A stretch of 49,242 nt of DNA, the filler included, from Sphacelaria rigidula (Eukaryota): assembly GCA_964200075.2 (NCBI GenBank). It is 3 parts of 3 records of this genome, joined end to end, with 100 filler letters (N's around TTAATTAATTAA, not from the genome) between each part and the next. Parts side by side here need not be neighbours in the genome. Positions count along the whole stretch, not along the records: positions 16,451 to 32,796 come from CAXNAA020001391.1; 2 more parts are not named here. One strand, given 5' to 3'. The notes under the pieces were generated by a model that ran no database searches, was not told the DNA's origin, and saw nothing but the letters and a program-made list of their open reading frames with translations. Shown in pieces: positions 16,351 through 36,300 of this stretch. A program made the position numbers and the translations under genes. How positions within the stretch are numbered: the first letter of the stretch is position 1; each line of letters begins with the position of its first letter.

Positions 16351-16450
16351 NNNNNNNNNNNNNNNNNNNNNNNNNNNNNNNNNNNNNNNNNNNNTTAATT
16401 AATTAANNNNNNNNNNNNNNNNNNNNNNNNNNNNNNNNNNNNNNNNNNNN
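16351..16450. other. Artificial scaffold linker (44 N + TTAATTAATTAA + 44 N)
   Basis: Exactly 100 nt. The palindromic 12-mer gives stop codons in all six frames. Identical to 32797-32896. Confidence 0.97.
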
Positions 16451-18504
16451 ATGCTCCCACTAAAACCCCCTATCAACTTGGCGCAGTACACGCGCCGCCC
16501 TGCTCCTGAGAGCTTCAGCCCTAGGACCCGAAGAGTTGGAGTGGGCGTTGTCATAGCTCGACGTATTGCTATTTTGTTGAGGTATAATGTGTTTGCCTTT
16601 GTTAAATAAGGCATCTCAGACTTGAAACACCTTATCAGGCAACCCCTTTTCGAAAAGGGACTCTAAGGCAGAACGTAAGGCATGCCCCATCGGTCAGGGC
16701 CTAGTTGGGTCATAACTGGGACCCACATCACACTGGAAAATTATACCATTTGTTTTGGCAACCACTCCGCATTTTTTGTACAAACATGAGGATTTGAGCT
16801 CGTCTGCAGACTGCTTAAATCCTCTCGCGATAAAATGTAAAGGCAGGCACCGCAAAAGGAAGGTGAAGAACTAAAACAAACAAACAAAAAACTCCCGTGT
16901 TAGCCTTCCTCCAGTGTGACCCCGGCTGGTGCGCCTACATATTATTGACCGAATGATCTAGATCGGTGTCCAGAATAGATGGGACGACAACACTTCAGGC
17001 GATTTATCCCTGGGATTGATTTTCCGGAACCAAGTACGTTAAGCACGGTTTTTCAGCTGGCTGTGAGGAATTCCCCAATTCCTCGCATCTGAGCAGAAAG
17101 GTGATGAACCAAAACTCAACGTCCAGAGAGACGGGCATTGATCTGGTTTCCTCACGGCTAGCCGAAAAATATTGCGCAACGGACTGGGGTCCGAAAATCA
17201 CTCCACTGGAGAAAATTGCCTGTAGGCTGAAAGCCTCATATTTCCTTATATTTATACAAGTACGGATTGGTTGCCACAAAAAATAGCTTTAGCAAAGACG
17301 CCGAATCCGAGCAAGGGGCCTTACAGACTGGAATTCGTTACGCAGCCCCCCCCCCCCCCAGAGGTGGTCGAGGATGAGAAACTCGAGAAATAGTGTCCAA
17401 AAAACCTTCTTATTCCTGTTTCTTCGCCAGAATACGGAATGTAAGGGTACTCAACCACCACGATGTTGGCTTGTACCCGAGCAGCCCAAAACCGAGGAGT
17501 TCGGGCATATCAGTCGTTCTGGCGGCCGCGGGGAAGAGAACGTGGTGGTTGAATGGTGTCTTTGGGATAGGTGTTAGTATGATGGGGTAATGCTGGAGAA
17601 AGCTGCGTACTCACGACATGAAGCCGATGGCGTTCTGTTTGTCCATCAAGGAAAGTGTACTACGAGTTGAACGTACTGCTGAGGGACACCAAAGGTACGC
17701 ACTACCACTGCGATTTGACTGTATAATTCCAACCGGCATAGAAATGTTGAGATAGTTCTTCCATGGTATCAAACAATTGTAGATGATTCGAGGATAATCA
17801 CCTGGTGTCCGCGTAGGCAGTGCCCGCGGTGGGACAGCTGTGTCGAAGGGTAATCTCTAATGGGCGGTATCCTGCACAGCGACGCAAATGAAAGGGACAA
17901 ATGAGAATCTCGTGAAGATGGTGTCGCTAAAGAAAGCAGTCGACAAGTCACGGTTCTGTAATATTTATTCATGCTGGCATAATGTATTCTAACAGTGTGT
18001 GGGCTTGACAACAACCACGGCTAGCCGCTACGTTTCCAGAACTTTTCACAGATGTATGTATGGCGCCGCATGCTGTCGAGTGGATCATTACGAGAGGATG
18101 CTGTTGCCACGAATAATAATGGACACTTGAACATTACTTACGTCAACGTACACCTACCACCTGCCGTGCAACCGTACCATACATGACTTGTACACAAGCC
18201 TGGCACAAGCTGGGGAAAGCCGTTCATGCGCGTACTGCACCGTACAGTACCTACTATCGTGGTTATTTACCTAATCAGGGGGGTGCCCACCCCTCGAAAA
18301 GGGGGTACCCCCCCCCCCCTCCCCCGTCGCCAAGAATGAGGTTTTCGGGAATTTGAGGCCCTGCGTAACATTCCAGTCTGTAAGGCCCCTTGATCCGAGG
18401 TGCCTTGTGCGACTTCATTGGAGAATGACCAACTCACATCCGGTTTGCCCACTCGGGGTATTCAAAGATATTTCACAAAAAATGTCAACCCGGGGATGGT
18501 ATAT

Positions 18505-18748
18505 GAGTGATTCTGATACACGATGAGGGGCGTTGATTCCACGAAAAAATGCTCATGGGTGTGTCAGTCGACCTGAAACGCTCACTGCGTGATCGTATTT
18601 GGGTGAAGATCGTGTCAAGCAGTATGAAGTACCAATGACTTGTGATTTTTTGGTAACATCCTCGTTTGGATAACTGTTGCTGTTTTCGTAAAAAAATGGC
18701 CCTAAATATCCCCCTCCTCCCTCTCTATCGTACTGTATAGGATGACCC
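18505..18748. mobile_element. Older, diverged copy of the same Sola-like MITE family
   Basis: Ends are GAGTGATTCT..ACGATGAGGGG and CTATCGTA..TAGGATGACCC. Internal blocks are colinear with 31963-32219 (CACGAAAAAA, GCTCATRGGTGTGTCAG, TCGTATTTGG, GTGTCARGCAGTATG). Flanks are ATAT and ATGT. Confidence 0.75.
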
Positions 18749-18939
18749 ATGTACGCTATCGAAATAGCTCAAGGTGAACGTAATTTTCGTCGAATTGAGC
18801 AACGTTGGGCTCCGAAATCGCCAGATTGAGTTTTCAAGTCTTAGCTCTCAATCGCAACACGGCGAAACCCCCTCAGAGGGACTCAGATGAGGTATACCAC
18901 ACTTGGGGTTCAGGCTACTCCTTAGGCCGCTGCTTATAA

Positions 18940-20360
18940 CAAAGAAGAAAGATCTGGAAAAGTGACTTTTTGGAGCTTTCACGTCGTTTTACGCCCTAAA
19001 AGAGAACTAGGCGGAGCTTTACATTTTGGAACTACTTGCTCTCCTCGTTGAGGCGGCTCCAGGACATCTTCGCGTTTTCGGGGGGCGCAGTTTTTATTTT
19101 GGCCACAACAGCATTATTGTGCAAGAACGGTCAAGAACGGTGAAACGTAGGAAAAATCGCCATCTTTCTCGGGACTTGACCGTCTCTGGACAAAAATGCT
19201 TGTTTGGCCGAAATAAAAACTGCAGCCACCAGAACATGCGAACTTGTCCTGGAACCGCCTCAACGAGTGGAGCGAGTAATTCCAAGGTGTCAAACTCCGC
19301 TAAAAGTATATCCACGTATATAGGTGGATCCTTATTTCCACCGTCACCTATTATCATGACCGATCCCGCGTTTTTTTTTTTTTAATTCGGGGGCCCACAT
19401 TTTTTTCATCTGCTGCCCGTCACGGATGTTTGCAAACAAAGGGAAGCCTTGACTTGTAACCTGGCACTACTGTATTGTCTGTGCTTGCAGAGTACAGCCT
19501 GTACTCGGACGTGCAGCAGTACAAGGTTACAAGTACAGCCTACAGCTGTGCCGTGTTTGTGAAGCACAGCCTATACTTGTATTGTCGTACTGTTCGAAAA
19601 ATCCACGGCCTGTCTGTACTTGTGAATACCGGTACTCATGTGCCCTGCTGTAACAGCCTGACACTGCATTGTACTACCGTTATACCGTAAACACTACATC
19701 GTGCAGGATGTATTGTGCCCGTCATCTAAAAAAAAAAACTCATCCACGGCACCACCGGATGATGAACGATCGAATTGGGTGTTTTCAGACGACAGATTTA
19801 CCCAGGATGGTTACTGGGGTTTTCCCGATCTTGCATTACTCAGCTGGCTTGGACGCGAACCCCGGCACTTTTTGCGCTGTAACCTTGTACTACTGCATGC
19901 CCGAGTAGAGGCTGTACTCTGCAAGCACAGGCAATACAGTCGTGCCAGGTTACAAGCATGGGCTGTACTCGCGAGCACAGTAGGTAGCTGTGCTTTGCTA
20001 ATACAGTACAGCACTATCCCGTCTGCACTGTAGGGTTCGAGGCTACATGCAGATGCACGCACATGACAGTGGATGCAGATGCAGAGGATATGGCTACTGA
20101 CTGCTGCCTGCATTCCGGTACACGTGAAGGCTTCACTTTGTTCGCAAACATCCGTAATGGGCAGCAGATGAAAAACACGTGGGTTCTCGAATTGAAAAAA
20201 ACAACGCGGGATCGGTCATGATATTAGGTGACGGTGGAAATGAGGATCCACCTACATAGGTGGATATTCTTTTTGTGGTCAAACTCCGCCTAGCTCTCTT
20301 TTAGGGCGTGAAAAAACGTAGCTCCAGAAAGGCACTGTTCCAGAACTTTGTTTTTGTAAA
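18940..20360. mobile_element. Palindromic MITE of about 430 bp, interrupted by the 19298-20277 insertion
   Basis: Removing the insert and one TSD restores a fold-back: CGCCCTAAAAGAGAACTAGGCGGAG... pairs with ...CTCCGCCTAGCTCTCTTTTAGGGCG. It belongs to the same family as 15290-15625. Confidence 0.8.
19298..20277. mobile_element. Non-autonomous foldback element with long TIRs (about 160 bp) and a 9-bp TSD GTCAAACTC; Mutator (MULE)-like
   Basis: 19298-~19460 is the reverse complement of ~20115-20277. The TSD lies at 19289-19297 and 20278-20286. An extra internal inverted pair lies at ~19452-19530 and ~19878-19957. Confidence 0.85.
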
Positions 20361-21291
20361 AAGGTGAGCGAGACAATCTCCTGTAAAAATGATTTTTTGT
20401 TCTTCCTTGAAGATCGTCGTTTTAGGCCCTGGAAGAGAGCTGGGCGGAGTTCGACACCTTGGGACGACTTGCCCCAACAACTGCGTGTCTTGTGGATGTC
20501 AGGTGTATAGGGCTGGCAGAGACCAATGTGTACCGACTACCCTCGTTGACACCTGTTCGCCACCAGATACTGCCAGATTCTGAGGGCTCAGCGGCAGTTA
20601 TTACCCAACGTGCAGTGTGTACACCGTTCTGCATCCTACCCTGTTGGGTGGTATGCGTTGTTGCAGTTCTGAGGAGAGGAGTGTGACACCGACTCTACAC
20701 GTACATGGGGAGGGAGGGCACACGTGGGACTGCTGTTTTTGGTGTTGGTGTTACTGTTGAAAGACTATTTACGTCGCTGGGTGTGCTGTGAATCTTGAGA
20801 ATAGCACGCGTCTCCACACATGAGGTACAGCCACGTGTTGGTGAGGTGTCTAGGATACGTCTTGGGGTGAGGAGCAGTCAAATAGTGTATGAAATAGTTC
20901 CGGTTTCAAAATGCCCCTCCGAGGCTCCGTCCGCTTTCTGTAATAGCTTTCCACTGAAGTCTTTGACATCCCTGGGTACAATATCGACGTATTGCTGTAT
21001 GCATACGACAGTGTTTCAGGCAAAAAAAAAGCATACACAGAGTGAAAAAGTGGTCACATTAGAACGAATAGTGAGCTGAAGCAACGCTAGACTTCTCTAT
21101 GTCACGAAACATTGTTGTACGTGCGCTGACTATCTGCAAGAGACGCGGACATGGCTCGTATGGTACCAGTTCTATTTTTTTTTACTTCGGTCACTTGGTT
21201 CTGGTTGCCATCTGGGCTATTGTGCATAATTGTACTGTCCCGGTTGTTTGTATCTCAGTTCTCCTCACAAGTTCAAGTCACTTGCTGACTG

Positions 21292-23094
21292 CCAACTAAG
21301 CTTGTGTTCAATCATGGTGTTATTGCTTCCCGTGTCGCTGTGCAGGGTCTGCGGTGAATGATCGCTCGGTGCTTTGCGGATTTTACGACACCAGCGGAGG
21401 CCCCGAGTGGCTCGAAAACTGGAAGACCGCTGAAGACCTATCGCGTTGGACTGGCGTTACCGTCAATGCGGAGGGGCGTGTCATCAAGCTACATCTGTCT
21501 GGGGGCAGGTTGACGGGTAGGCGACTACTATTATAGAATGAAAACGACGTTGTGCGGTCATGCCGGCCGCGATGTGTACGGTCGGCCCCTGACATGACTC
21601 TTCATGCTAACGGTATCAGCACGCGAGTTGAGCACGACGAATATTGTTTCAGTTTCCTCTCGAAAGCCACAACTAAGCTTTTCATCACGCGTATGAAGGT
21701 CGTGTCGTGGACGAGTCCGTTTGAGGTCATCGATAAGCCGAGCATACACGAGGATGTGACATCGGGTGCGACCGGCTTCGTTGGTAGTGTCTTTGCCTCC
21801 TGCAGATAATTAACGTAATTGTTGGCAAGGTCTAATAGATGGATGGCGACAGACGTTCACTTGGCTTACGTGGACGCGGGAGACCTGCCCTGGCTGTTTT
21901 GAACACGTACGATGTATATATCTGGATATTACAGTGCTGTTGGGACTCTCGTTGGAAAATCTGAAGGAAATAAATGAATGATGTGGTACAGCGTGTACGC
22001 CTCGTAGCAAAGCATTATCAACCACGTCGCCCACGTACAGGGCTATAGCAACCGACAGATTCTACACACAGCATGATGCTCAAAATCGCTTCGTCGTGGT
22101 TGAACCAAGAGGCGATCAGTGACGCTTTGAAGTTAAGTCAACAAAGTTACACGAACATTGTACTTTTTTCGTTCCGTTACCCTGTCATAGCATGCTTTGG
22201 TTCCGTCGGGTTGTCTTGCCTTGGCCTGGCTTGCCCTGTTTGGTATGCCGACCTGTGTAGTTACCGTATTTTGACTTCTGGTCTCTGACGGCCCGAGTAC
22301 CTCGTGGCTGATGATTTTTCTTATTTCGGTTTGTCCCTTGGAAGCGTACGTATGCTCTTGTCTTCGTTATATTTTTGCTAGCATTTTTGTAGAACCCCGC
22401 CGTTCGGGGGCTTTGTGCCATGTTATCCTTTTCTTGGGAGTATAATTCATGTTTCCATGTATTCTTTTTTTCGGACATGTCTCTGCGATCGCACGGATGC
22501 TAGTTTTTATTTCAAAAGGCAAAAAACAACTGTCCGCGGTTTGAGGCAGAAGAGTTGTCCAACCACTATCTAATTGTATGCTCCGCGATTTCTCAATCGC
22601 TTGGGTCAGATACCTGTTTTTTTAACAAATTTGCTGGCTAACCTTCGACGTCGGTGACCCCGACTACACTACACTAGCTGAGCAGCTCCCATATTCTTGA
22701 GAGTAGCATCCACAATGACTCTGTACCGTGGATCCCGTGGTGGCCAACCCCTGACTCACGGCTGTTGTCCCACTGACGCCTGTTGCTTTTGCACATAATT
22801 CCCAGTGGTTGATGTTTCAGGGTGATCCGCACGCAACGTACTACTAAAACCTGCAGTACAGAAGTTCTAGGTCAATCCCCGCCGACGAAACAGGGAAATA
22901 TTCTACATCCTTTGATGTCTGAATCGCCACAGCACGAGCAGGCCACCATGAAGTGTTCGGCTCGTATGGACTTGGATGAACACAAGGTTGGCCTCCCCAC
23001 GGCGGATAGCGGAGCACCGGGTCGGTTTTCGTAGATAATGGGGGCTTCGTCCAGGGCTCCACCATTTGGTTCTACTCGTCCACCCTCACACCGG
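21292..23094. repeat. Left arm of a long inverted duplication (partner 30733-32796)
   Basis: Near-identical reverse complement of the right arm. The mirrored ORFs show it (MVEPWTKPPL... at 22844-23065 minus and 30762-30974 plus). The outer limit is unknown because the partner ends at the scaffold edge. Confidence 0.95.
21346..21516 (+). CDS. LRR N-terminal cap exon (171 nt, phase 1-1) of an LRR protein of the brown-algal LRR/ROCO type; isolated exon, left arm of the inverted duplication
   Basis: Splice sites are ctgtgcag|GG...ACG G|gtagg. The translation SAVNDRSVLCGFYDTSGGPEWLENWKTAEDLSRWTGVTVNAEGRVIKLHLSGGRLTG fits the DRxxLxxxxxxTGGxxW..NW......W.GV......RV..L.L....L.G cap pattern. Confidence 0.8.
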
Positions 23095-23341
23095 TGTTCA
23101 TGTTAGCTTCAATGCCTGAACACAACTACTCGCTACTTCTCCTAAATACAAACACTCTGAGGTGCTTCGGGCTCCTCGACTGAAGCGGAGCGCAACTGAA
23201 GTTTGAGGAAGTTTGTTTTAAACCGGGTTGCATGGCTGTTCCTCTGAAAATTTGAAATTCTCAACTTCAAACGTGAAAAGGCAACGGCCGTGCCCTCTCT
23301 GAATCCAAGTATCCTTGCATACAAAAGTTAAGCGAGGCTAG

Positions 23342-23452
23342 TACACCGGCGGGGGACAACGGGACCACGTGGGGAGCCCTACTGTTCAAAGTTTAAAATC
23401 GATGTTCACGTCAAATCGGTCTCCCCACGTTGTTCCGTCGTCCCTCACCGTA
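23342..23452. mobile_element. Very short TIR element (about 110 bp)
   Basis: GGGGACAACGGGACCACGTGGGGAG pairs imperfectly with CTCCCCACGTTGTTCCGTCGTCCCT. Confidence 0.55.
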
Positions 23453-24674
23453 GTACCAGCCTGGCTTCACTTTTGACGTGAACGTGCAATGTGCAACGTG
23501 TGTGTAGTGTGTATGGTGTGCTCGTTGTTCGCTTGAATGAGTTTGTTTTGAGGCGCTGTTTGAATTGTGTGGATGCAGTTCATAATAATCAAACTCTTTA
23601 GCTTGCACAGATGTTGCGACTTCGGTGCAGTTTGGTACCGTGACCACCTCTGAGCAGACGGGAGTACGCGCGGTGGAGCAACGAAAGGTAGCTATGGTCA
23701 GGTTTTTCTGCCGTATTGCCGACAGCGTCGCGCGAAAGCCACAAGACCCTTGCTGTCGGCGGTTGATGGCGTGGGTCTCGAATGCAACGACATGCGGTTG
23801 ATCGTAGAGCACTTTCGTCTCTCCTCCAAGTTGTGATAATCCATTATCTCCTGATATCGGAATAATTATTACTTGTGGGAAGCTACTCGTACTGTACCGA
23901 GCTGTTCACGCGACCAGCGTGTGCTGCAGATTCCCCATGCGCCACGCTAGCAACAGTTAAGTCACCACCATAAGTATCTTCCTTCACTCCGCATGTAAAT
24001 AAAGTCTCTACAAGTGTTTGGTCTCTCATACACCCCCCCCTCAACTGGCGTGTGGCACGCCCTTCTGCTCGGGCACCCGGTTGGAGGAGGTCGGCCAAAA
24101 TCAACGATGAATAACACCCCCTACGTTCATATTGGATTTATCTGCCATTGCCGCAGCACCGCTCCTTGCTAGCATGTGTGTGACAGAGAACAGTAGTAGC
24201 GGTGACGGGAACATTGCCCCTATTTTTCAACCACATGTTTTTCAGGGCACAGAGGCGCGTCCTGTCCAAAACGAGAGGTGGAGAGAAATCGACCTTCGCG
24301 TTGGCGACAGGCAAGAAGAGACGACGGAATCTCTCCGCACGTCGATGTTCTGGCACATGAAAAAATTGGAACATGCTGGTGTAATAAGATGATGCCACTT
24401 TCTCAAGCGATTGGTAATGGCCGAGCGAGGACACACAAAGGACATGGGCGAGGAGCTTCCTCTCTGTCGTTGCTTCTCTCTCTGGTGATATCGTCATCGA
24501 CAAGCGTGTACACCGCATTCGTTAGGTGCACCTCGCCACAGCTGCTCAACTGCTGCGGACATCTGGGGGGGAAGATGGCTTCGCTCGGTCGCAAGTGTTT
24601 CGCTTCTTCCCTGCCAAAGAGAAATGCCACTTCAACCTCATATTTTGTATGAACCCCATTTTCTAGGATCCACT

Positions 24675-24990
24675 GTTTATTCTGGACGCCGGTCTACACC
24701 TTTCAGTATATGTGGGCGCACCAGCGGGGGTCACACAGGAGGACCGTCAACACAGGGAGTTTCTTGTTTTTTGTGTGTTTTCAGTACTCCACCTTCCTTG
24801 TGCGACGCTTGTCTTTTACTTTATCGTGCCTATCTCTCGTCGACCGTGAATTCGAGTTTCGTGTACCCACAACATAGTCGCTCTCCTCTGTTGGGCATTG
24901 TGTGAGAAACGAAACCCTGATCGCTCCGAGATTAAAACCCAAGGCCCACCTGCCATAAGGTGTCGATGTCATCAACTGAGCCACCGGGGG
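24675..24990 (-). mobile_element. Near full-length tRNA-derived SINE
   Basis: The minus strand begins CCCCGGTGGCTCAGTTGATG (A-box-like) ... GGGTTTTAATCTCG (B-box-like). Its 5' half matches 37105-37310. Its 3' part matches 12265-12375, 16275-16350 and 16885-16992. Confidence 0.75.
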
Positions 24991-27799
24991 AACCGTCTCG
25001 TACAGGACAACGCATATTTTACAGCAGCGTAGGGTAATACCACCCCACGGAACGTACTGCAGAAAGACTTGCTCGACACTACCACATCCTCATGTTTCCG
25101 ACAGGTACAGTAGGATATTTCGACCAACATGGGAATATGTCCCAAGTTTCTTTCGTGGAATCATGACGTTCTGTGTTTAGACTACAACAGAGCGGCTTGG
25201 TACACAACGTCTGCAACATGGGCCACAAATGTGGCAATTGTAGACAAAAGGACGTTGTTCTACGCCGCCATAGCCCGTGTGATCCAGCACACATACCACC
25301 TATGGCATGATACCTGAACCACGTACTTGCATCGTGCGTACGAGGGACGACGGGACAGTCAAATATCAAACCGGCACGTGACAGTCGTCGAAAGTCCTGC
25401 TTCGAACACCGAGCACATACACATTAACAAACCTGCAAAGCAACACGGCTTTCGTCGTGGCACTTACTCGGCTTTTGACTCACCAGTCAGACTGTTTGTT
25501 CTCAGGTTCAGCTTCCGAAGACGACCTAGGCGAGCCAACTCCCGCGGGATATTGCCTGACCAGAGTAAAAGATCATATCAAGGACAGAACACAACCACAT
25601 CACATACGGTCACCAACCAACAGTGACATGGCCACTTAAGTGCGAATGCAAAACAGACCACGTGTCGATCAAGTGCCGAACCGCCATCTGCAAAAAGCCG
25701 GGAGAAGCGGATCTCGGTATAGCCACACCAACGATCGACACGGGTGGCGACCAGTCGTGAATACAAATGCTCTAGTGCTCACGTGGAAATCTTACCAAGA
25801 TCAGCCGCAATATCGCCATTGACATAGACTACATGCAGCAGGTACATGTCCCAGTTGGGAGACACCGAGTCGACATATACAACGTGCGAGATGTGTTTGC
25901 CCCCGCAACAGTAAACGGTACACCCAAGGCACAGCAGGTGCACAGCAGCATCATCGGGGAAGATGTCGTCGCTGGCGGGTTGATCCTCGTTAGTGCATGT
26001 CATGTCGCCTCATTGTCTAGTGTGCCGTTGTGGATGTGCTGTGCTGTGGAGTAGAGACAGGGTACCTATATCATCAAACGGTAGGTTGGGATCGCGAAAA
26101 AAAGCGATCAAACCCCTGCTACATGGCCGGGTGAGCGAGTCGTACAGAAAAATGAAGTGTTGAATCAGGTTAGGCGTCCGCTATCCGGACACCACACTTC
26201 GCGGGTACAAAGTCTCACCCGCAAACTCTGCGGGAGAGAGACACCAACAAAAACACGACCCGAATATATCTACTTCACAAAAAATTGAAGCGAAAAAGAG
26301 AGGACGCCCGGAATCAAACGCAAGTATGAAACCGGAAAATCGCTAATTTCGCCAGCAAGGAAAGTCAATCAACAGACAGGACCGGACAGGAATGTGTATC
26401 AGTTTCCGTCAAGTATGCCCAAAGACAACAAGTGTTGATTGATCGTTCCACGCTCACTGGTTTCCTACGAACACAGCCATGGTCAGACGTTGAACATACC
26501 CGAACGGAGTAAACTCAACAGCGACGAACAGAAGACAAACGCGAACACGAAGACGAGGAAATAATAGCAAGAACAGGAAGGAGAGGAGAACAGAGATGAT
26601 CCCATGATACATTTCAGAAAGGACTGGTCCTGCGAAAACCATTGAAACGAGGAAGAGAATACCCGCTGTGTCTGCATGGCTTCAGGTCAGGAGGCCGTAC
26701 TAAATTAACAAAACCAAAATCAACGAAACGGGGAAAGAAACAAGGCTGTGGACGCAGGTTGCAAGCTGTCAGGAAACACTGTTTACCACGAATTTTCAAA
26801 CCAAAGGTGAACGGGCGCAAAATGCGTCTAAATATGAACGGGGTTGAGACAGATGTCAATGCCGGTGCCTTCAACGTGCCACGCTGGTGAGCCAAGTCTG
26901 CACCTTTATGATTCGCGAGCGTGTCTTCGTGTGCGGCTGAAGCCTGAAGTCCAAACGTTTTGACATTGGCTTGAAGCGTAGTCGAATAACCCACTGCAGG
27001 TTTGAGGGTACATCTCCAAGTCCTTTCAAACACAAACTTTGGAGCGGAATGCGGAGTGCATTCGCCTAAAATAAACAGGACATAAATAAGCAAGAGGATC
27101 CAGCATGATAAGACTATGTTGGGATGCCTTTGCTGTTGTGATCGCAGCGCAGCCGTTTACTGTGCGAGTTGAAGGAGCGCGTCCACAACCTGACGCGCTC
27201 CCCGGTGAACACGACGGCTGACGTATCTTCATTTCAAATACAACATTGCGCCACCTGTACGTGTATGTGTTTTCAAAAGTGGTTCAGCGGGGTGATAGGG
27301 TGACGACTTATCTCCCCCTCCCCCTTAACCGTCGTTAGTTGTGCTGAAACTGAAAGCGCTTGCGTCCTTTTTTCACAAAAACGACCTGATAATACGAGGA
27401 CGTCAGTGTCAGCGCTAGCTCACTTCAAGAAACATGGAATACGGTTTCGCCCTAGAATGCAAACCTCACGGCATATTTTGCGTCTCTACGTCTCCATGTC
27501 ATTGCGGCCAAAGTGACTTGCTAAGTATTGGTTCGCTCGATGGATTATGGAACAAATATTCAACCTCGATTTCTCAGCAGAACGGTGAAAACGAATGGAA
27601 CCCTCAATTTCAAGCTTAGCAAGCTGGCACTTCATCATTTGCGTCATTCCCACTCCTACATTCCAACATCAACAATGCAAATGATCGGAAGTATGAACCT
27701 TGACCATGAGTAGAATCCTCTGATTAGTTTTCCTCCAAAAAATGAACTCCGCATCGAAGGGAACTTGGATAATTTTGTCGTCAAACTGTGAAATCCTCC

Positions 27800-27953
27800 A
27801 TTTTGGGACGAGTCCGTTGTCTATACTAAACGAATCAACCCGACCTTGGTTCGTTACACGCTCATTTTTTGTTCTTTTAGATTGTCGCATTTTAAACCCT
27901 TCCTCGTCCTTGGGACGAGCTATCTCAAGGTGTCGACCCATATCTCCCCGGTA
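27800..27953. mobile_element. Terminus of a dispersed DNA-transposon family; other copies at ~45895-45953 and ~48093-48144
   Basis: Shared GGGA(C/T)(G/A)AGTCCGT...TC(A/G)AC(C/T)C.T.TCTCCCCGGT(A) terminal motif, seen on two different scaffolds. Confidence 0.6.
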
Positions 27954-27989
27954 CCCGCCTAATGGTACCTGAATGTTGGAGGTGGTTTA

Positions 27990-28090
27990 TTAGGAGTAGG
28001 AACGGTGCTCTGTCTCGAGAGGGGTGCATGGTCAATGGTCAAACGACGAAGCCAAGAAACCCATGAGTATGCCTCCCCCCTCCCCCCCGC
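27990..28090. repeat. Dispersed repeat; second copy at ~36730-36825
   Basis: Shared GGAGTAGGAAC...ATGGTCAAACGAC...GCAAG/CCAAG..AC..ATGAGTA followed by a C run. Confidence 0.65.
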
Positions 28091-28252
28091 TACATTCCGT
28101 ATAATTTGGCCTCGCTTATAGTTGTCAGCGCTCCTGCACCGCGTCAACTCCCGTCAAATCAACTGAGTCAACTGTACCCATTACTCATTACTCTCGTACT
28201 ATTGATGACGCTTCCGACGATGGAAATCGGATACCTGCAAGGAAAAACCCCA

Positions 28253-28330
28253 CGCATCGGGATTCGAACCCTCGTTCTTTCTACCCTAACGGTGACAGTC
28301 GGACCTTTCTAATTTACACCACCCGGGGCA
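28253..28330 (-). mobile_element. tRNA-like head, probably of a second SINE family (Asp-like anticodon loop)
   Basis: The minus strand reads GCCCCGGGTGGTGTAAATTAG...CCGACTGTCACCG...GAGGGTTCGAATCCCG, with a B-box GGTTCGAATCC and a CTGTCAC loop. The stems do not form a proper cloverleaf. Confidence 0.5.
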
Positions 28331-28334
28331 CTGT

Positions 28335-28744
28335 NNNNNNNNNNNNNNNNNNNNNNNNNNNNNNNNNNNNNNNNNNNNNNNNNNNNNNNNNNNNNNNNNN
28401 NNNNNNNNNNNNNNNNNNNNNNNNNNNNNNNNNNNNNNNNNNNNNNNNNNNNNNNNNNNNNNNNNNNNNNNNNNNNNNNNNNNNNNNNNNNNNNNNNNNN
28501 NNNNNNNNNNNNNNNNNNNNNNNNNNNNNNNNNNNNNNNNNNNNNNNNNNNNNNNNNNNNNNNNNNNNNNNNNNNNNNNNNNNNNNNNNNNNNNNNNNNN
28601 NNNNNNNNNNNNNNNNNNNNNNNNNNNNNNNNNNNNNNNNNNNNNNNNNNNNNNNNNNNNNNNNNNNNNNNNNNNNNNNNNNNNNNNNNNNNNNNNNNNN
28701 NNNNNNNNNNNNNNNNNNNNNNNNNNNNNNNNNNNNNNNNNNNN
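28335..28744. other. Assembly gap (410 N) inside scaffold 2, between the two arms of the inverted duplication
   Basis: Run of N. Confidence 0.98.
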
Positions 28745-28857
28745 GTAGTCCGAATGGTCGCCTGCGGCACTGGATCTCATGGGGTTAGTATGGTTTTGTT
28801 CCGCAGTACCGTTTCTCCGTTAAGGTCTTGAGGTCCTATTTGATCTTCACTTTATTC

Positions 28858-29114
28858 CACACGTCGGACAGAACATGATCTGTCTGAAACAACTTATCAA
28901 ACAAGACTCTCGAATACGTTGGTCCTAAAACACAATATGTGACCGCGGAGTCAGAAAAGCAAAACCGCAACCTTTGCGCTGCTCGGCGTGCTCGGCGCCC
29001 GGCGCTGTAAGGGGCAAACGTAGAAAAGGGGGGCCAAGTGATCTGGATCATGATCTGGATCAGTATACTGAGAAAAAGTAATTTTCAGACAGATCATGAT
29101 CTGTCCGACGTGTG
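28858..29114. mobile_element. MITE with 32-bp TIRs (CACACGTCGGACAGA.CATGATCTGTCTGAAA)
   Basis: TIRs at 28858-28889 and 29083-29114 differ by one mismatch. GATCATGATC subrepeats lie inside. No clean TSD. Confidence 0.8.
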
Positions 29115-29207
29115 TTGTATTCCCTCATCTCGACTATTTTTGATAGATGGCCTGTGACCACGAGAGGCGTCCGCATCACATGACCAGTACGGAAGTAAAG
29201 AATACAG

Positions 29208-29241
<34 letters not shown>
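29208..29241. repeat. (AAC)n microsatellite
   Basis: Directly visible. Confidence 0.95.
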
Positions 29242-29242
<1 letters not shown>

Positions 29243-30355
29243 GACAATAAGACATGATGTAACAGAGGAAATAATTCCAGATTATGATACCCACCTCAAC
29301 ATAGTGTATTTCCTGGAAAATATGTTCCAAAAAAAATGCTTCCAACAATTCTCGTCAGAATCATGTTTCTTCAACCGATTTTGACGGTGAGGATACATTA
29401 TAAATCAACTCATGAGAACATCATTTCGAGACACTCCAGCATACTACATTTCAAACGTCCCCATTTGTAGGGAACAACAATTGCAACTTTGCCACCAAGA
29501 ATTTGAAGCCAAGGTGTAAAAAAGGATAGCATTACTCCCGAATAATATATCAACACAGACTTGTTCAGAGTCAACATCCGAGATTCTTTCATCAGCGAAG
29601 GCTTTCGGAGTGTGCATTCAATAGTTGCACATACGGCATCATTGTGACCAACATGAACAACTCAATAGGGTAACCTAGTCGGAATTTTGTTCAAGGTCAG
29701 AAGGGCGTCGTCAAGAGACGAAAAGGTATCTGGACCAATCAGCGACCTATCCTCTGTTTGAAGGGTTCTGTCGAACGACCGCATTGAAGAGAGCTTCCTC
29801 GACTGAGACACAAAACTGGATGCAGCCCGGTGGCAAATACCGAACGACTCAAATCGCGTTCATCACGCCAAGAGTAAGGTCCTGCTACTGAATTTTGCTT
29901 TGTTGCGCCAAACAGCGACTATCTGGACAGAAAATGAGGGAGGATTAGAAAAGTACAAACAGTTAAACGGAAACCACGATTTTTTCGGGTAACAGCGGGT
30001 CCGATCAGACAAACCACGGTTCTTTCACCAGACTGCCCCCTACACCGCTCACAACGTACGTACGCGTCGGAAAACCACAAAAACTGTCGCTCTCGAGATA
30101 TGAACAAAGGGGAAGGCCAACACCGACCTCGTAGTATGTGGAAGGTTGGTTATTCCGGAGCAATTGTCATGCTGTGCCCGTCACATCTCGATCTCGGAGG
30201 CCGAGTACAAGATAGTTTACTATGTTCACGCCCCTGGTCCCCTCAGCACACACATGATAGATTGCAATCGTCACCTTCGCATTTCCAACCATTGCGTGTG
30301 TATCTTCTCTACTTCTGGGCAGAGACGATAACAGTAACTTCATCTAGACTCTCAC

Positions 30356-30424
30356 CCATTAAATTGCAGGATCTCACGACTAGCTCCTCGAGAGCGCCGA
30401 GCTCTGCAAGCGCAACTAGTGAAC
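30356..30424 (-). CDS. Single leucine-rich-repeat exon (69 nt, phase 1-1), downstream of the right-arm N-cap exon
   Basis: Splice sites are gatgtgcag|GT TCA...ATG G|gtgag. It encodes (G)SLVALAELGALEELVVRSCNLM(G), which fits LxxLxxLxxLxVxxCxL, and is phase-compatible with exon 32742-32572. Confidence 0.7.
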
Positions 30425-31962
30425 CTGCACATCACGAAAGCGAGGAGCATATGGAGCTGCCTGCGTTCAGATATCCAGGTACAGCACACTCGTTGCAACG
30501 CTCCGCAGTCATCTGTAGCGATTGTAAATCCAGTCAGGGGGGATTCAATCTTACGCACGGGAGGAATCTCCAGCACCCGGCTACTCATGGAATCAAGCAC
30601 GTTCTCACAGTTTGTGCGCTATACAGTACTATACATCTGTGCCGAACGACGTGGCGTGTGAGCACTTCAGAGTGTTCGTATCCAGGACAAGTAGCGAGTA
30701 GTTATATTGAGGCTTTGACGCTCAAATAGAGGCCGGTGTGAGGGTGGACGAGTAGAACCAAATGGTGGAGCCCTGGACGAAGCCCCCATTATCTACGAAA
30801 ACCGACCCGGTGCTCCGCTATCCGCCGTGGGGAGGCCAACCTTGTGTTCATCCAAGTCCATACGAGCCGAACACTTCATGGTGGCCTGCTCGTGCTGTGG
30901 CGATTCAGACATCAAAGGATGTAGAATATTTTCCTGTTTCGCCGGCGGGGATTGACCTAGAACTTCTGCACTGAAGGCTTTATTAGTACGTTGCGTGCGG
31001 ATCACCCTCTAACATCAACCACTGGGAATTATGTGCAAAAGCAACAGGCGTCAGTGGGACAACAGCCGTGAGTCAGGGGTTGACCACCACGGGATTCACG
31101 GTACAGAGTCATTATGGATGCTACTCTCAAGAATATGGGAGCTGCTCAGCTAGTGTAGTGTGGTCGGGGTCACCGACGTCGAAGGTTAGCCAGAAAATTT
31201 GTTCAGAAAACAGGTATCTGACCCAAGCGATTGAGAAATCGCGGAGCATACAATTAGATAGTGGTTGGACAACTCTTCTGCCTCAAACCGCGGACAGTTG
31301 TTTTTTGCCTTTTGAAATAAAAACTAGCATCCGTGCGATCGCAGAGACATGTCCGAAAAAAAAGAATACATGGAAACATGAATTATACTCCCAAGAAAAG
31401 GATAACATGGCACAAAGCCCCCGAACGGCGGGGTTCTACAAAAATGCCAGCAAAAATATAACGAAGACAAGAGCATACGTACGCTTCCAAGGGACAAACC
31501 GAAATAAGAAAAATCATCAGCCACGAGGTACTCGGGCCGTCAGAGACCAGAAGTCAAAATACGGTAACTACACAGGTCGGCATACCAAACAGGGCAAGCC
31601 AGGCCAAGGCAAGACAACCCGACGGAACCAAAGCATGCTAGGACAGGGTAACGGAACGAAAAAAGTACAATATTCGTGTAACTTTGTTGACTTCACTTCA
31701 AAGCGTCACTGAACGCCTCTTGGTTCAACCACGACGAAGCGATTTTGAGCATCATGCTGTGTGTAGAATCTGTCGGTTGCTATAGCCCTGTACGTGGGCG
31801 ACGTGGTTGATAATGGTTCGCTATGAGGCGTACACGCTGTACCACATCATTCATTTATTTCCTTCAATTTTTCAACCGAGAGTCCCAACAGCACTGTAAT
31901 ATCCAGATATATACATCGTACGTGTTCAAAACAGCCAGGGCAGGTCGCCCGCGTCTACGTAA

Positions 31963-32219
31963 GAGTCATCCTACGATAGGGGGGGGGGGGTATTTGGTTG
32001 CACGAAAAAAGAGGCTCATAGGTGTGTCAGACATCCTTCCACACTTGCGTTGCGTTCGTATTTGGTTCTAAACGGTGTCAGGCAGTATGGATGAGCGTTA
32101 TTGATCCACAACAAGCTTGTTCCAACAACCGTTGCTGCTTTCAACGACGATCTGACTCGAACTTCCGAGCAACGAATGGCCCAAAATACCCCCCCCCCCC
32201 CCCTATCGTAGGATGACTC
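31963..32219. mobile_element. Young non-autonomous DNA transposon (MITE), Sola-like: GAG..CTC termini and 4-bp TSD GTAA
   Basis: TIRs are GAGTCATCCTACGATAG(G)nTATTT and AAATA(C)nTATCGTAGGATGACTC. GTAA flanks both ends (31959-31962 and 32220-32223). The other arm has the empty site with a single GTAA (plus-strand TTAC at 21866-21869). Confidence 0.9.
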
Positions 32220-32571
32220 GTAAGCCAAGTGAACGTCTGTCGCCATCCATCTATTAGACCTGGCCAACAATTACGTTAATTATCTGCAGGAGGCAAAGAC
32301 ACTACCAACGAAGCCGGTCGCACCCGATCTCACGTCCTCGTGTATGCTCGGCCTATCGATGACCTCGAACGGACTCGTCCACGACACGACCTCATACGCG
32401 TGATGAAAAGCTTAGTTGTGGCTTTCGAGAGGGAACTGAAACAGTGTTCCTCGTGCTCAACTCGCGTGCTGCCACCGTTACCATGATGGGTCATGTCAGG
32501 GGCCGACCGTACACATCGCGGCCGGCATGACCGCACAACATCGTTTTCATTCTATAATAGTAGTGGCCTAC

Positions 32572-32742
32572 CCGTCAACCTGCCCCCAGACAGATGTAGC
32601 TTGATGACACGCCCCTCCGCATTGACGGTAACGCCAGTCCAACGCGATAGGTCTTCAGCGGTCTTCCAGTTTTCGAGCCACTCGGGGCCTCCGCTGGTGT
32701 CGTAAAATCCGCAAAGCACCGAGCGATCATTCACCGCAGACC
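32572..32742 (-). CDS. LRR N-terminal cap exon, second copy (right arm of the inverted duplication)
   Basis: Reverse complement of 21346-21516 with the same splice sites and the same translation. Confidence 0.8.
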
Positions 32743-32796
32743 CTGCACAGCGACACGGGAAGCAATAACACCATGATTGAACACAAGCTTAGTTGG

Positions 32797-32896
32797 NNNN
32801 NNNNNNNNNNNNNNNNNNNNNNNNNNNNNNNNNNNNNNNNTTAATTAATTAANNNNNNNNNNNNNNNNNNNNNNNNNNNNNNNNNNNNNNNNNNNN
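32797..32896. other. Artificial scaffold linker (44 N + TTAATTAATTAA + 44 N)
   Basis: Same structure as 16351-16450. Confidence 0.97.
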
Positions 32897-33375: not shown

Positions 33376-36300
33376 GGTACCTACAGCAAAAAGGCGTCAG
33401 CGGATCTACGAGGACTGTCTACGAAGAGGCTTGCTCGGAGATGTCGAAGATTAACAGGTGGGTGAGAGAGGTATAGTAATGTTTTAACCCTTGGGCTGCG
33501 AACCTCGCATCGAAACAAATTTGCCGGGTGACAGTAAACGAACATCCAGAGGTTTTCAGCAGGCAGAAGGATGGTTTTCAAGGAGGGTGCGTGCCTGTTC
33601 CACAACAACCGAAAAGTCGCGAAGTCAATCATGCGTGTTAGGAAGTTTCCAGGGGAAAATCCCAAGCTGGAAACGAAGCCCGAGAAGAGAGGAGTGATCA
33701 TTTCGACGCGTTGTGCTTGATCAATCTGGTCACTTCGTTCCGCAACATGTGACATACCTACTATAAGCTACCTCGGTGAAGCCAAATTTGACCATTTGGA
33801 TAACAACCACTCAACCATAAAAAAAGCAGGGGCAAAGGGTGTGTTGTTTGCTCTACTCGTAGTTTTTGGCCCCTGGCACCTCTTGAACTGTCAAAATAAC
33901 CCCACATTGTCTGTAGTGTGGTTGTTGAACACTGTGCAGAGATAGCAGCAGCGCGCAGTAGACTGTGTTCAGTGGAGAGCAGTAACACACAGACCGTTGT
34001 ATACCGTCATGCCCAGCCACTGATGATGGGAAAAGATTGCATACACAGTAGAGTGGCAGCTGCGCAAAGAACGTGAAAAAATGTGAAGCAGTGCGACGAT
34101 GTGACACGCTTGCAAGTTCAAAATACGCTCGAGGTGGGCCATTCCTCCTCCGAGAGTACCACACCCGCTGCGAAAGCATAGATAGGAGGAGGGGATGCAT
34201 ATTGTTCGCATTCATGGCAGCAGCAGTGGCTGCCAGAGTGCGTCACCTTCAAACCATGAAAACTACGCACCCCACGAAAACAGCTCAGTGGAGACATACA
34301 CATGAACATGCACGTGACCTCTGCATCAAGACCGATCAGAGGTTCTCTAGCACTCTTGATGATTCCCTTGTATACGCCCAACATCCGCATGCTCATGAAA
34401 AAATAATCTTGTCTTTTGAGAAAGCTGCTGGTTTGAACCCCGAATGCGCCATAGGTCATCTGAGATCATCTACGAGCGGGTCGTAGCCTAAATTCTAAAA
34501 CTCCACAATGGAATGTAAACATAGCTGTATTCGATGTATGATCATAGCTACGGTGCTTGGACCGTTCTCGCGTGGTATGGTCACAAGCCAAAATCGCCCG
34601 CTTTACATCTACTCCGTCCTCAGTTTTAACCAACCCGAGTGGTCCTCTGTCATTGCGACTTTTCACGCCAAACCCGCCTGCGAATGGCGGCATAATGCTA
34701 CCTGACAGACGACGTTTTCGTGCGGAAATATGAACAAAAGCCTACTCCATCCACCCAAGTATGTCGGGGTCTTTTCGGTTGACGTCGTTGAAGCCTTCGC
34801 ACGTCGCTAGGCCAGTTGGCAGCACTTGTTGGAAACACCGTGCTTTGTTCACTTTGCACGGGGTGATGAGTGACGGCGAAAGAGGAAAAAACCTGTCATG
34901 GCGCGGGTCCAATGCTGTACCGCCTCAATTCTAACGGTCGATAATCTGCCTCTTCCTTCGTAAAAAAAAAATGTGCCAAGTAAAAAAAACAGTCTGCAAC
35001 AAACCTCGCCTAGAATAGTGCCACCTTCAACGAGGTTCACCACCGAAATGATCATTGCTGGATTGTAGACACAGTGCCAAGTGTAAGGGTACGAGGGCTG
35101 CTCTCCAGCATATCATAGTCTTCAGAGAGCATATTGTATACGGGTGTGTTCGCTCGTCTTTTTGGCGATGTTCCCCCTGAGGCTACTGGACGGCCGTTTC
35201 GTTTCTTGCATCGTTTTTGGCGTTGAAGTGGAGTATGATGCAGTGGTGATGCGAAAATCGAAGCGCGCCACACGACATGAAAATTCTTGCTTGTTTTCAT
35301 TCAATTCCTGTGTCGTACGTGCAGCGCGCGAGGCGAGATGGAGGCGGCAGAGGCAGCCGTCACGGCTGACCCTGCTGACCAAGATGCCCTGGATAAGCTG
35401 CTGCAAGCGCAAGCTACTTTCGAAGCCGTGGGGGGATTGACACAGGACAGAACGGTAGCTCAGGTGTGATGCCTTGACCACACTGCAGGGTATGCTGTCT
35501 AGACGTCGTAGCCGTGCTAGCGTGTGGCGACCCTTTGCTTATTGCCGGGTGGTGTCACGGTCGATTGCTCATGCCTCACCCTCCCCGGCCTCCACTCGTT
35601 CCGGCTGCGAGTGTCTAGTGTCTTCTCCGCCGCTCATGCGTTTCTGCTGCGTCCATGCTGTGTTCTTCTTGGTATCAGATATTGGGTGGTTTGGGGTTTA
35701 GCTCTGCAGATCAACAGCGGCCGTGCTCCACATTTAGCGGAGGATGGCAGATGCGAATCGCTCTGGCTAAGCTGCTGCTGTCAGAGCCCGACCTGCTGCT
35801 GCTCGACGAACCCACTAACCACCTCGATGCATCCGCAAAGGTTAGAAATGTCTCGACTTTGGTATCGGTCTGAATTCGGCGCCGATTTGCCCCACACAGC
35901 AGTAGAGCAGGGACTAGGGCCGTGCCCACTGCAATGACGCTTTTGACACGAGTATATTTTTTCTACTCTGGTGTAGAAGATGGCAGCACTGGGCATGAGT
36001 TGGACAATGAAAATCACTGTAGACCATCCTATTGTTTTGATGTTTTGATGTTGACCCGATCAGTCAAGTCTAAGTCAAGTAGAGCCCGGGAGTCTCTCCT
36101 TGCAGCTGAGCCCACTGCATGACCACATGGAGTATTGTATAGTATACTGTCTCCATTGTATTGTTCATAATATATTCAAAATACATACGAAGTACATAGA
36201 CTGGTTTTACAAAGCGTTGATGAGTAAATTGTCCCCAGGAGAAGGAAGAATGAATGATTCATGTCGCAGGTTCTGCGGATGTCTGTTGGTTGTATCTGTC

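What the first reader, a model, noticed from the sequence alone, without database searches (positions are those of the whole stretch)
21292..32796. Palindromic LRR locus: two convergent arms with identical N-cap exons around a ~7.6-kb spacer
Seen: inverted arms of at least 1.8 kb. The 171-nt LRR N-cap exon and its splice sites look identical in both arms, while the neighbouring intron has many substitutions. Known: brown-algal LRR genes (ROCO LRR-GTPases, LRR kinases) are built from symmetric single-repeat exons and are proposed to diversify by exon shuffling. Inference: recombination between the arms would flip the spacer. That would swap which 5' gene half is joined to which downstream exons, giving a possible inversion-based switch for receptor diversification.
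Basis: partly seen in the sequence, partly recalled or inferred. Interest (0 to 1): 0.75.

Follow-up and report, generated by a model that had tools for sequence, protein, structure and literature searches.

The report
Inverted duplicate of LRR gene start
Two inverted, 97 % identical copies of the start of a leucine-rich-repeat gene really are in the sequence, but they sit on a small, repeat-rich, gapped scaffold, and nothing shows that they act as a flipping switch.

Summary
Arms 21292-23166 and 30661-32796 are inverted copies: 61 substitutions in 1,874 aligned columns, 96.7 % identity. Each carries an identical 171-nt exon (21346-21516 +, 32572-32742 -) with AG/GT sites. The exon encodes an LRR cap plus first repeat and has 3,317 homologues.

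The context weakens the interpretation. The window is three records glued by artificial linkers, and the locus is a stand-alone 16,346-nt scaffold (16451-32796). The right arm lies in a 4-kb terminal contig, joined only across the 410-N gap and cut off by the scaffold end. No listed public contig bridges the gap.

The only further LRR exons (30356-30424 and 25484-25555) lie on the minus strand, in phase with the right copy. Because the two cap exons are identical, flipping the spacer would give the same exon order. It could swap only unseen 5' and 3' flanks, so it would not diversify the repeats.

No other domain or recombinase appears in the 107 ORFs tested. The spacer is largely high-copy repeat. 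A 249-nt MITE with a 6-nt target duplication marks the right arm as a separate copy.

Best reading: an inverted partial duplication in a brown-alga-type LRR exon-shuffling locus, kept patchily identical by gene conversion or selection. Interest is low to moderate.

The parts
16451..32796 (.). Stand-alone 16,346-nt scaffold that holds the whole finding. It is bounded by artificial 100-nt linkers at 16351-16450 and 32797-32896.
   Evidence: N runs and TTAATTAATTAA motifs. The ORF protein P0040 of the right arm is on record from one NCBI contig of 16,346 nt.
21292..23166 (+). Left arm of the inverted repeat (1,875 nt).
   Evidence: Its inner junction to the spacer is seen as a joint (23200 with 30661, opposite strands) in contigs of 3 of 4 runs.
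30661..32796 (-). Right arm of the inverted repeat (2,136 nt including a 255-nt insertion). It is cut off by the scaffold end.
21346..21516 (+). 171-nt exon encoding an LRR N-terminal cap plus the first repeat, phase 1-1, with AG acceptor and GT donor.
   Evidence: Sequence. 3,317 homologues at E<=1e-3. Weak Pfam LRR_10 hit, E 0.0077, below cut-off.
32572..32742 (-). Identical twin of the cap exon, in the right arm.
   Evidence: Exact identity of the exon, acceptor and first 6 nt of the donor.
30356..30424 (-). Candidate 69-nt degenerate LRR exon with AG/GT sites, phase 1-1, in frame after the right cap exon.
   Evidence: tblastn support is only E 0.2-0.6, so this exon is weak.
25484..25555 (-). 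Canonical 72-nt 'type I' LRR exon (G NIPRELARLGRLRKLNLRTNSLT) with AG/GTGAG sites, phase 1-1.
   Evidence: tblastn E 1.6e-5 to 5.5e-5. It fits GxxPxxLxxxxxLxxLxLxxNxLx as printed in PMC3341825 section 15.
28335..28744 (.). 410-N assembly gap. It separates contig 16451-28334 from the 4,052-nt terminal contig 28745-32796.
   Evidence: No bridging contig is listed.
31964..32218 (.). Insertion in the right arm only: a 249-nt element with perfect terminal inverted repeats plus a 6-nt target-site duplication (CTTACG). The left arm keeps the empty site at 21865-21870. High copy.
   Evidence: Summed contig depth is 1e5-1e6 in bin 31840-32159.
22896..23094 (.). Second block identical in both arms (twin 30733-30931). 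It is not an LRR exon, and the last 72 nt of the arms that follow are only about 78-82 % identical.
   Evidence: No Pfam hit in 4 frames. No Rfam hit. Fold z-scores +0.96 and -0.51.
23520..25119 (.). High-copy repeat inside the spacer. Further high-copy stretches lie at 27680-28319 and 28960-29279, beside the gap.
   Evidence: Summed contig depth is 1e4-1e6, against 1e1-1e2 to 1e3 in neighbouring bins, in all 4 runs.
21099..21296 (+). ATG-started ORF just upstream of the left cap exon. It is in the same frame, has a hydrophobic stretch, and has several phase-1 GT sites. It is a possible first exon of the left copy (inference only).
   Evidence: tblastn alignments run into it.

Best explanation
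The locus is an inverted partial duplication inside a brown-alga-type LRR gene locus, lying on a small, transposon-rich, unplaced scaffold. The duplicated unit is the cap exon plus about 1.65 kb of the following intron.

The copy with a coherent gene structure is the right one, on the minus strand. Its cap exon (32742-32572) is followed by a degenerate LRR exon (30424-30356) and then a canonical 72-nt LRR exon (25555-25484). All three are phase 1-1. No further exon is detectable, so it is probably a truncated or LRR-only gene.

The left arm is a reverse-oriented copy of the gene start, possibly with its own ATG exon, and it has no downstream LRR exon on its strand.

The patchwork of 0 %, 0.7 %, 4-8 % and 22 % divergence along the arms is best explained by gene conversion between the copies and with further paralogues, plus purifying selection on the cap exon.

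What is shown: the repeat, the exons, their phases, the MITE insertion and the assembly context. What is inferred: the splicing, the gene conversion, and that the two arms are physically linked as scaffolded. I see no programmed inversion.
For: Arms and their statistics.

The two copies are distinct sequences. There are 61 substitutions, and a transposon with a target-site duplication sits in one arm against an empty site in the other.

The cap exon has 3,317 homologues. In 4 of 4 long homologues tested, LRR_1, LRR_4 and LRR_8 score above Pfam cut-offs; in P0117 and P0139 the module matching the exon lies N-terminal to the LRR matches listed.

LRR exons occur only on the minus strand of the spacer, all phase 1-1.

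Divergence is heterogeneous, P = 0.0002 for the two longest identical runs.

At 32733, 6, 7, 9 and 1 contigs carry a letter that neither arm has, which points to further paralogues.

PMC3341825 (sections 12, 14 and 15 read) describes the same kind of locus in Ectocarpus: a conserved cap-like N-terminus of about 45 residues, 72-nt LRR exons, intact LRR exons on the non-coding strand with conserved splice sites, recombination hot spots, clusters and many pseudogenes.
Against: Linkage of the arms depends on one gap-spanning scaffold join that I could not verify.

The 30356-30424 exon is weak (E 0.2-0.6).

No RNA evidence for any splice was obtained.

At three arm-diagnostic sites (32433, 32446, 32450), X1 and X5 show only left-type letters, X4 shows only right-type letters and X2 shows both. 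Fixed paralogues should appear together in every sample, so alleles, presence/absence polymorphism or strain mosaics are not excluded.

The second identical block is unexplained.

The organism was not identified. 'Brown alga' rests on the exon architecture and on a run labelled 'algae metagenome'.
Confidence: 0.55

Rival explanations
1. Assembly artefact of linkage. The two arms are real but unlinked (or differently oriented) paralogues of a multi-copy LRR gene start, and the 4-kb terminal contig was joined wrongly across the gap. In that case there is no palindrome.
For: The right arm lies in a 4,052-nt contig attached only by 410 N, and both gap flanks are high-copy repeats. The arm runs into the scaffold end. 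The scaffold is a 16-kb unplaced record. No listed contig of 4 runs bridges the gap. Parts of the arms attract several contigs per run.
Against: Single-copy stretches (25120-27679 and 29280-30559) lie within about 1.6 kb of each other across the gap, so unique mate pairs could have supported the join (inference). The minus-strand 72-nt LRR exon left of the gap has the strand and phase expected for the right-hand gene.
Confidence: 0.25
2. One reading: a functional inversion switch. Homologous recombination between the arms flips the 7.5-kb spacer, somatically or between strains, and re-pairs the gene halves.
For: The geometry allows it: 1.9-kb arms at 97 %, with a shared phase 1-1 cap exon on both sides. 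The left copy may have its own start exon. Somatic recombination has been hypothesised for such genes (PMC3341825 section 27).
Against: A flip gives the same cap exon and the same order of the two spacer exons, so the repeat domain is not diversified. No recombinase or other domain was found in 107 ORFs. PMC11378527 (passages only) states that somatic recombinant ROCO loci have not been reported in brown algae. Linkage itself is unverified.
Confidence: 0.05
3. The arms are two haplotypes (alleles) of one locus that the assembler placed head to head.
For: Across the four runs the left-type and right-type letters at 32433-32450 occur singly in X1, X4 and X5 and together only in X2. Divergence of 3 % is in a range possible for alleles.
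Against: Homology ends sharply at 23166/30661 with unrelated sequence beyond, so one haplotype would need a rearrangement. X4 shows left-type at 30666 but right-type at 32433-32450, a mosaic that does not fit two clean haplotypes. The ploidy of the sequenced material is unknown to me.
Confidence: 0.07

Closest known systems
Ectocarpus 'type I LRR exon' loci (ROCO LRR-GTPases and other LRR genes) with exon shuffling and reverse-strand LRR exons (Zambounis et al. 2012, PMC3341825)
   Same: A cap-like N-terminal module. A 72-nt phase-symmetric LRR exon that fits GxxPxxLxxxxxLxxLxLxxNxLx. An intact exon copy in reverse orientation with conserved splice sites. Signs of recombination or conversion. 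A fragmentary gene.
   Different: Here the inverted copy is the cap exon together with about 1.7 kb of intron, a 1.9-kb inverted repeat rather than a single 72-nt exon. Only two LRR exons are present. There is no ROC-COR, kinase or other domain on the scaffold. Transposons are abundant, whereas the paper saw no role for them.
Inversions mediated by inverted repeats through non-allelic homologous recombination (for example human polymorphic inversions; PMC7263195 and PMC4576756 seen in a search listing only)
   Same: The geometry: two inverted, highly similar arms around a unique spacer. Patchy identity is as expected from conversion between arms.
   Different: No evidence that both orientations exist. 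The arms are short (1.9 kb) and 3 % diverged.
Site-specific DNA invertase switches (Hin/Gin, shufflons; recalled, not tested against a paper)
   Same: The idea of coupling alternative gene ends by flipping a segment.
   Different: Those use short recombination sites and a nearby recombinase gene. Here the repeats are kilobase-long and no recombinase domain was found in 107 ORFs.
Lamprey VLR loci (recalled from general knowledge)
   Same: An incomplete LRR gene with a cap-encoding part and LRR cassettes nearby in either orientation.
   Different: VLR assembly is copy-choice/gene conversion from many cassettes with cytidine deaminases. Nothing comparable was seen or tested here.

Membership tests
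Brown-algal type I LRR-exon genes (Zambounis et al. 2012) | Each repeat is encoded by one 72-nt exon fitting GxxPxxLxxxxxLxxLxLxxNxLx. | tested here: met
   25484-25555 (-) has AG/GT sites, is 72 nt and fits the motif. tblastn E 1.6e-5. It is the only such exon. 30356-30424 is 69 nt and degenerate.
Brown-algal type I LRR-exon genes (Zambounis et al. 2012) | A conserved cap-like region at the N-terminus, related to the caps of LRR proteins of many organisms. | tested here: met
   3,317 homologues at E<=1e-3, 817 at E<=1e-10. 4 of 4 long homologues tested are LRR proteins by Pfam; in P0117 and P0139 the matching module lies ahead of the listed LRR matches.
ROCO LRR-GTPases | ROC GTPase and COR domains downstream of the LRRs. 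| tested here: not met
   0 of 107 ORFs of 62 aa or more on the scaffold match Roc, COR or any family except the weak LRR_10 hit. Short exons could be missed and the scaffold is only 16 kb, so the gene may continue off-scaffold.
LRR receptor kinases | A protein kinase domain. | tested here: not met
   No Pkinase match in 107 ORFs, with the same caveat as for ROC-COR.
Pfam LRRNT_2 (PF08263) | A match to the profile at or above the gathering score. | tested here: not met
   With max E 10 only LRR_10 was listed: 16.4 bits against a cut-off of 30, E 0.0077.
Programmed DNA inversion switch | Both orientations of the invertible segment occur in one organism or population. | not testable with these tools
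   Only short contigs of 4 runs were available. A flip inside the arms leaves all short junctions unchanged.
Programmed DNA inversion switch | A dedicated recombinase encoded nearby. | tested here: not met
   No recombinase, transposase or integrase family in 107 ORFs.
Programmed DNA inversion switch | The two orientations give different products. | tested here: not met
   The cap exons are identical and both spacer exons are on one strand, so the exon order is the same in either orientation. The flanks beyond the scaffold are unknown.

The most novel reading that the evidence does not exclude
The palindrome is real, and the spacer flips by homologous recombination between the arms, in somatic cells or between strains. 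One shared LRR exon cassette is then alternately driven from two different gene starts or promoters: the left one with its own hydrophobic leader exon, the right one unknown. Gene conversion keeps the cap exon and splice sites identical so that both states splice correctly. This would be the first physical example of the DNA rearrangement long hypothesised for brown-algal candidate immune receptors.
Probability: 0.05. Interest if true: 0.65.

Novelty: new member of a known kind. Interest (0 to 1): 0.28.

Why it matters
Brown-algal LRR genes built from one-repeat exons have been proposed since 2012 to be reshuffled by recombination, perhaps somatically. According to the 2024 paper, no recombinant locus has been reported.

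A verified inverted repeat that carries an intact cap exon would be a convenient place to look for such events with long reads or PCR. As it stands, the locus mainly illustrates birth-and-death and conversion dynamics that are already described. It also shows how assembly context (concatenated records, scaffold ends, gaps in repeats) can make such a locus look more designed than the evidence allows.

Tried and rejected
- Whole-genome search of the window's own assembly: none is held.
- Word-indexed protein search with the 78-aa ORF, longer proteins: 73 candidates, none at E<=1e-3. The exhaustive search was used instead.
- Names for 6 hits: none carried a name.
- Pfam on the four frames of the 199-nt identical block, on both short LRR exons and on 12 spacer or upstream ORFs: nothing.
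- Rfam at gathering scores and ARAGORN on the scaffold: 0 hits each. RNA folding of the identical block on both strands gave z = +0.96 and -0.51, so no structure signal.
- Search for homology beyond the inner arm ends: none. The score was 1.0 against a shuffled mean of 1.9 and a maximum of 6.
- Sequencing runs: no RNA holder was listed, so nothing can be said on expression.
- Laying contigs of X1, X2, X4 and X5 on 23200-32796. I laid one arm only, to avoid a long internal repeat. No listed contig bridges the gap or crosses 30661 from the spacer into the right arm: X1's 1,149-nt contig stops at 30661, X2's at 30626 and X4's at 30490. Of 197 joints only 15 were shown, and only 24 of more than 3,400 loose ends, so absence from the list proves nothing. 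The tool warns that depth figures are not copy numbers.
- JGI metagenome scan with the cap peptide: 597 pattern matches, 0 confirmed.
- Literature: 'brown alga / LRR / inverted repeat / inversion' gave 171 papers holding at least 3 of the 4 terms. Of the 10 listed, none by its title or abstract start concerns an LRR inversion locus in brown algae. 'Ectocarpus / somatic recombination / long-read' gave 0 papers.
- I considered that the arms are a transposon carrying a captured exon. I rejected this for lack of terminal repeats, target duplication or a transposase, and because mid-arm depth is only about 2-3 times that of single-contig bins.
Full report
**1. Assembly context**

The window is not one molecule. 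It contains two 100-nt blocks made of 44 N, TTAATTAATTAA and 44 N, at 16351-16450 and 32797-32896. It also has a 10-N run at 9534-9543 and a 410-N run at 28335-28744.

The three pieces between the linkers are 16,350, 16,346 and 16,346 nt long. The ORF protein of the right arm (P0040, 64 aa, 100 % identical) is on record from a single NCBI contig of 16,346 nt.

The finding therefore lies in a stand-alone 16.3-kb scaffold, window 16451-32796. That scaffold consists of two contigs, 16451-28334 and 28745-32796. The right arm sits in the 4,052-nt terminal contig and ends exactly at the scaffold end. The arms are 'at least' 1.9 kb only because the sequence stops there.

**2. The repeat**

- The repeat finder reports four collinear inverted pairs covering 21292-23166 and 30661-32796.
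- blastn gives 96.5 % over 1,304 nt and 97.1 % over 579 nt.
- A re-alignment has 1,874 aligned columns, 61 substitutions (96.74 %) and 3 indels.
- Homology stops sharply at 23166/30661. A sensitive blastn and a global alignment of the next 234 nt find nothing above shuffled controls.
- The last 72 nt of the arms are only about 78-82 % identical.

Divergence along the arms is very uneven. In 125-nt windows from 21292 the difference counts are 0, 1, 10, 5, 4, 7, 3, 1, 1, 1, 4, 3, 8, 0 and 16. The longest identical runs are 231 nt (21292-21522) and 199 nt (22896-23094). The chance of a longest run of 231 or more is 0.013, and of both runs together 0.0002.

The right arm alone carries a 255-nt insertion at 31964-32218. 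It is a 249-nt element with perfect terminal inverted repeats, flanked by a duplicated CTTACG. The left arm has the empty site with one CTTACG. In public contigs this element has an enormous summed depth, so it is a high-copy MITE. The arms are therefore two separately evolving copies, not one sequence assembled twice.

**3. The exon**

21346-21516 (+) is preceded by a pyrimidine-rich tract ending in CAG and followed by GTAGGC. It is 171 nt long and open in one frame, with one base of a split codon at its end and two at its start (phase 1-1). The twin at 32572-32742 (-) is identical, as are 20 nt before the acceptor and 6 nt of the donor.

Its 56 residues find 3,317 proteins at E<=1e-3, 817 at E<=1e-10 and 43 at E<=1e-30 in the exhaustive search. 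Many hits contain the module several times. Four of four long homologues tested are LRR proteins by Pfam, with LRR_1, LRR_4 and LRR_8 above cut-offs. In P0117 the matching module sits at residues 25-79, just ahead of an LRR_8 match at 67-126.

Pfam itself gives the exon only LRR_10 at E 0.0077, below the cut-off, and no LRRNT_2 match. 'Cap plus first repeat' is therefore supported by homology and position, not by a curated family match.

**4. Other exons**

A motif-score scan of all six frames, an AG/GT exon scan and tblastn with 150 LRR proteins agree. Besides the two cap exons, the scaffold has one clear LRR exon at 25484-25555 (-). It is 72 nt, with AG and GTGAG sites, in phase 1-1, and encodes G-NIPRELARLGRLRKLNLRTNSLT (E 1.6e-5). 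It fits the 'type I LRR exon' GxxPxxLxxxxxLxxLxLxxNxLx of Ectocarpus (PMC3341825 section 15).

It is not significant by tblastn (E 0.2-0.6).

Both exons are on the minus strand, downstream of the right cap exon. No plus-strand LRR exon follows the left cap exon. None of 107 ORFs of 62 aa or more matches any other Pfam family: no ROC, COR, kinase, transposase or recombinase.

Upstream of the left cap exon, an ATG-started ORF (21099-21296) lies in the same frame. It has a hydrophobic stretch and several phase-1 GT sites, so it could be a first exon. This is inference only.

**5. Public reads**

Six of ten listed runs hold part of the stretch, and none is on record as RNA. I laid contigs of four runs (X1, X2, X4 and X5; four samples, two studies) on 23200-32796 at 90 % likeness or more.

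(a) High-copy repeats lie at 23520-25119, 27680-28319, 28960-29279 and 31840-32479. Both flanks of the gap are therefore repetitive.

(b) A joint between 23200 and 30661 on opposite strands appears in X1, X2 and X5. The arm-side lengths are 95, 85 and 102 nt. That is what a contig of the left copy, crossing from the arm into the spacer, should look like, so the left contig's junction is corroborated in 3 of 4 runs.

(c) No listed contig crosses from the spacer into the right arm. X1's contig stops at 30661, X2's at 30626 and X4's at 30490. None bridges the gap. Most joints and loose ends were not shown, so this is no evidence of absence.

(d) Summed contig depth in mid-arm bins (31200-31839) is about 2-3 times that of single-contig spacer bins. 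In the cap-exon bin and the inner block it is about 3-9 times. At 32733, 6, 7, 9 and 1 contigs carry a letter that neither arm has. The cap exon and the inner block thus seem to belong to larger families. The tool warns that these depths are not copy numbers.

(e) At arm-diagnostic sites the runs are mosaics. At 32433, 32446 and 32450, X1 and X5 show only left-type letters and X4 only right-type. X2 shows none, part and part at the three sites respectively. At 30666, X1 and X4 show only left-type, while X2 and X5 show both, with the right-type at about single-contig depth. This fits neither clean fixed paralogues nor two clean haplotypes. Strain differences and conversion are likely.

**6. What a flip would do**

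If the arms are linked as scaffolded, crossing-over within them would invert 23167-30660. Read from the left cap exon, the exon order would then be cap, 30424 exon, 25555 exon. That is the same as now from the right cap exon, and the cap exons are identical. Only the upstream part (promoter and start exon) and whatever lies downstream would change. The repeat domain would not be diversified.

**7. Comparison with what is known**

Zambounis et al. (PMC3341825; abstract, sections 12, 15 and 27, and passages read) describe the following for Ectocarpus:
- a conserved N-terminal region of about 45 residues shared by ROCO and other LRR proteins;
- one 72-nt exon per repeat;
- intact LRR exons on the non-coding strand with conserved splice sites;
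- recombination hot spots, gene clusters and many pseudogenes;
- a hypothesis of somatic recombination.

The 2024 ROCO paper (PMC11378527, passages only) states that somatic recombinant ROCO loci have not been reported. My two literature searches found no description of an inversion locus of this kind. Supplementary tables of these papers, which list LRR loci, were not opened and might list this locus.

**8. Verdict**

The 'switch' is an untested idea that the exon geometry makes less attractive. The palindrome itself hangs on one unverified scaffold join.

My estimates for the competing readings are:
- About 0.55: a real inverted partial duplication in an LRR exon-shuffling locus, homogenised in patches by conversion or selection, without programmed inversion.
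- About 0.25: unlinked paralogues joined wrongly.
- About 0.07: alleles.
- About 0.05: a working flip-flop.

The 199-nt identical block and the 22 %-diverged inner 72 nt remain unexplained.

Noticed in passing
window 16351-16450 and 32797-32896: Artificial linkers (44 N, then TTAATTAATTAA, which has stops in all six frames, then 44 N) join three separate records of 16,350, 16,346 and 16,346 nt. Features must not be read across them.
   Followed up: yes
window 31964-32218: A 249-nt MITE with perfect terminal inverted repeats (starting AGTCATCCTACGATAG followed by a G run) and a 6-nt target duplication CTTACG. The copy number in public contigs is extremely high.
   Followed up: yes
window 28858-29114: A second 257-nt element with 32-nt terminal inverted repeats, just right of the gap. 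Contigs show hairpin-type joints at 28935/28936 with 29083, and a variant that skips 28777-29153.
   Followed up: partly
window 19011-20278: A nest of inverted repeats (19297-19531 against 19878-20278 at 85-92 %; 19011-19145 against 19165-19300 at 74-76 %). It looks like a foldback-type element upstream of the left arm.
   Followed up: no
window 22896-23094 and 30733-30931: A 199-nt block identical in both arms, open in three frames of one strand. It has no Pfam or Rfam hit and no fold signal. Several contigs per run match it with variants that neither arm has. Its nature is unknown.
   Followed up: partly
window 29198-29253: A trinucleotide microsatellite (it reads as a run of asparagine or leucine/valine codons). 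The read-laying tool skipped it as a repeat.
   Followed up: no
window 35760-35828, 38911-38979, 40378-40473 (third record): Plus-strand ORF pieces with ABC-ATPase motifs ([37 protein letters not shown]). They suggest a multi-exon ABC-F-type gene. The motif names are recalled, not tested.
   Followed up: no
window 28250-28334: The left edge of the gap contains a GGGATTCGAACCC-like stretch reminiscent of a tRNA T-arm, and it lies in a high-copy repeat. ARAGORN and Rfam call nothing there. It may be a tRNA-derived SINE (recalled resemblance).
   Followed up: partly
P0148 (protein from a 1,996-nt contig of a public run): A 64-aa ORF about 81 % identical to the cap exon, with a two-residue insertion. 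This is a close paralogue or orthologue in other data.
   Followed up: no
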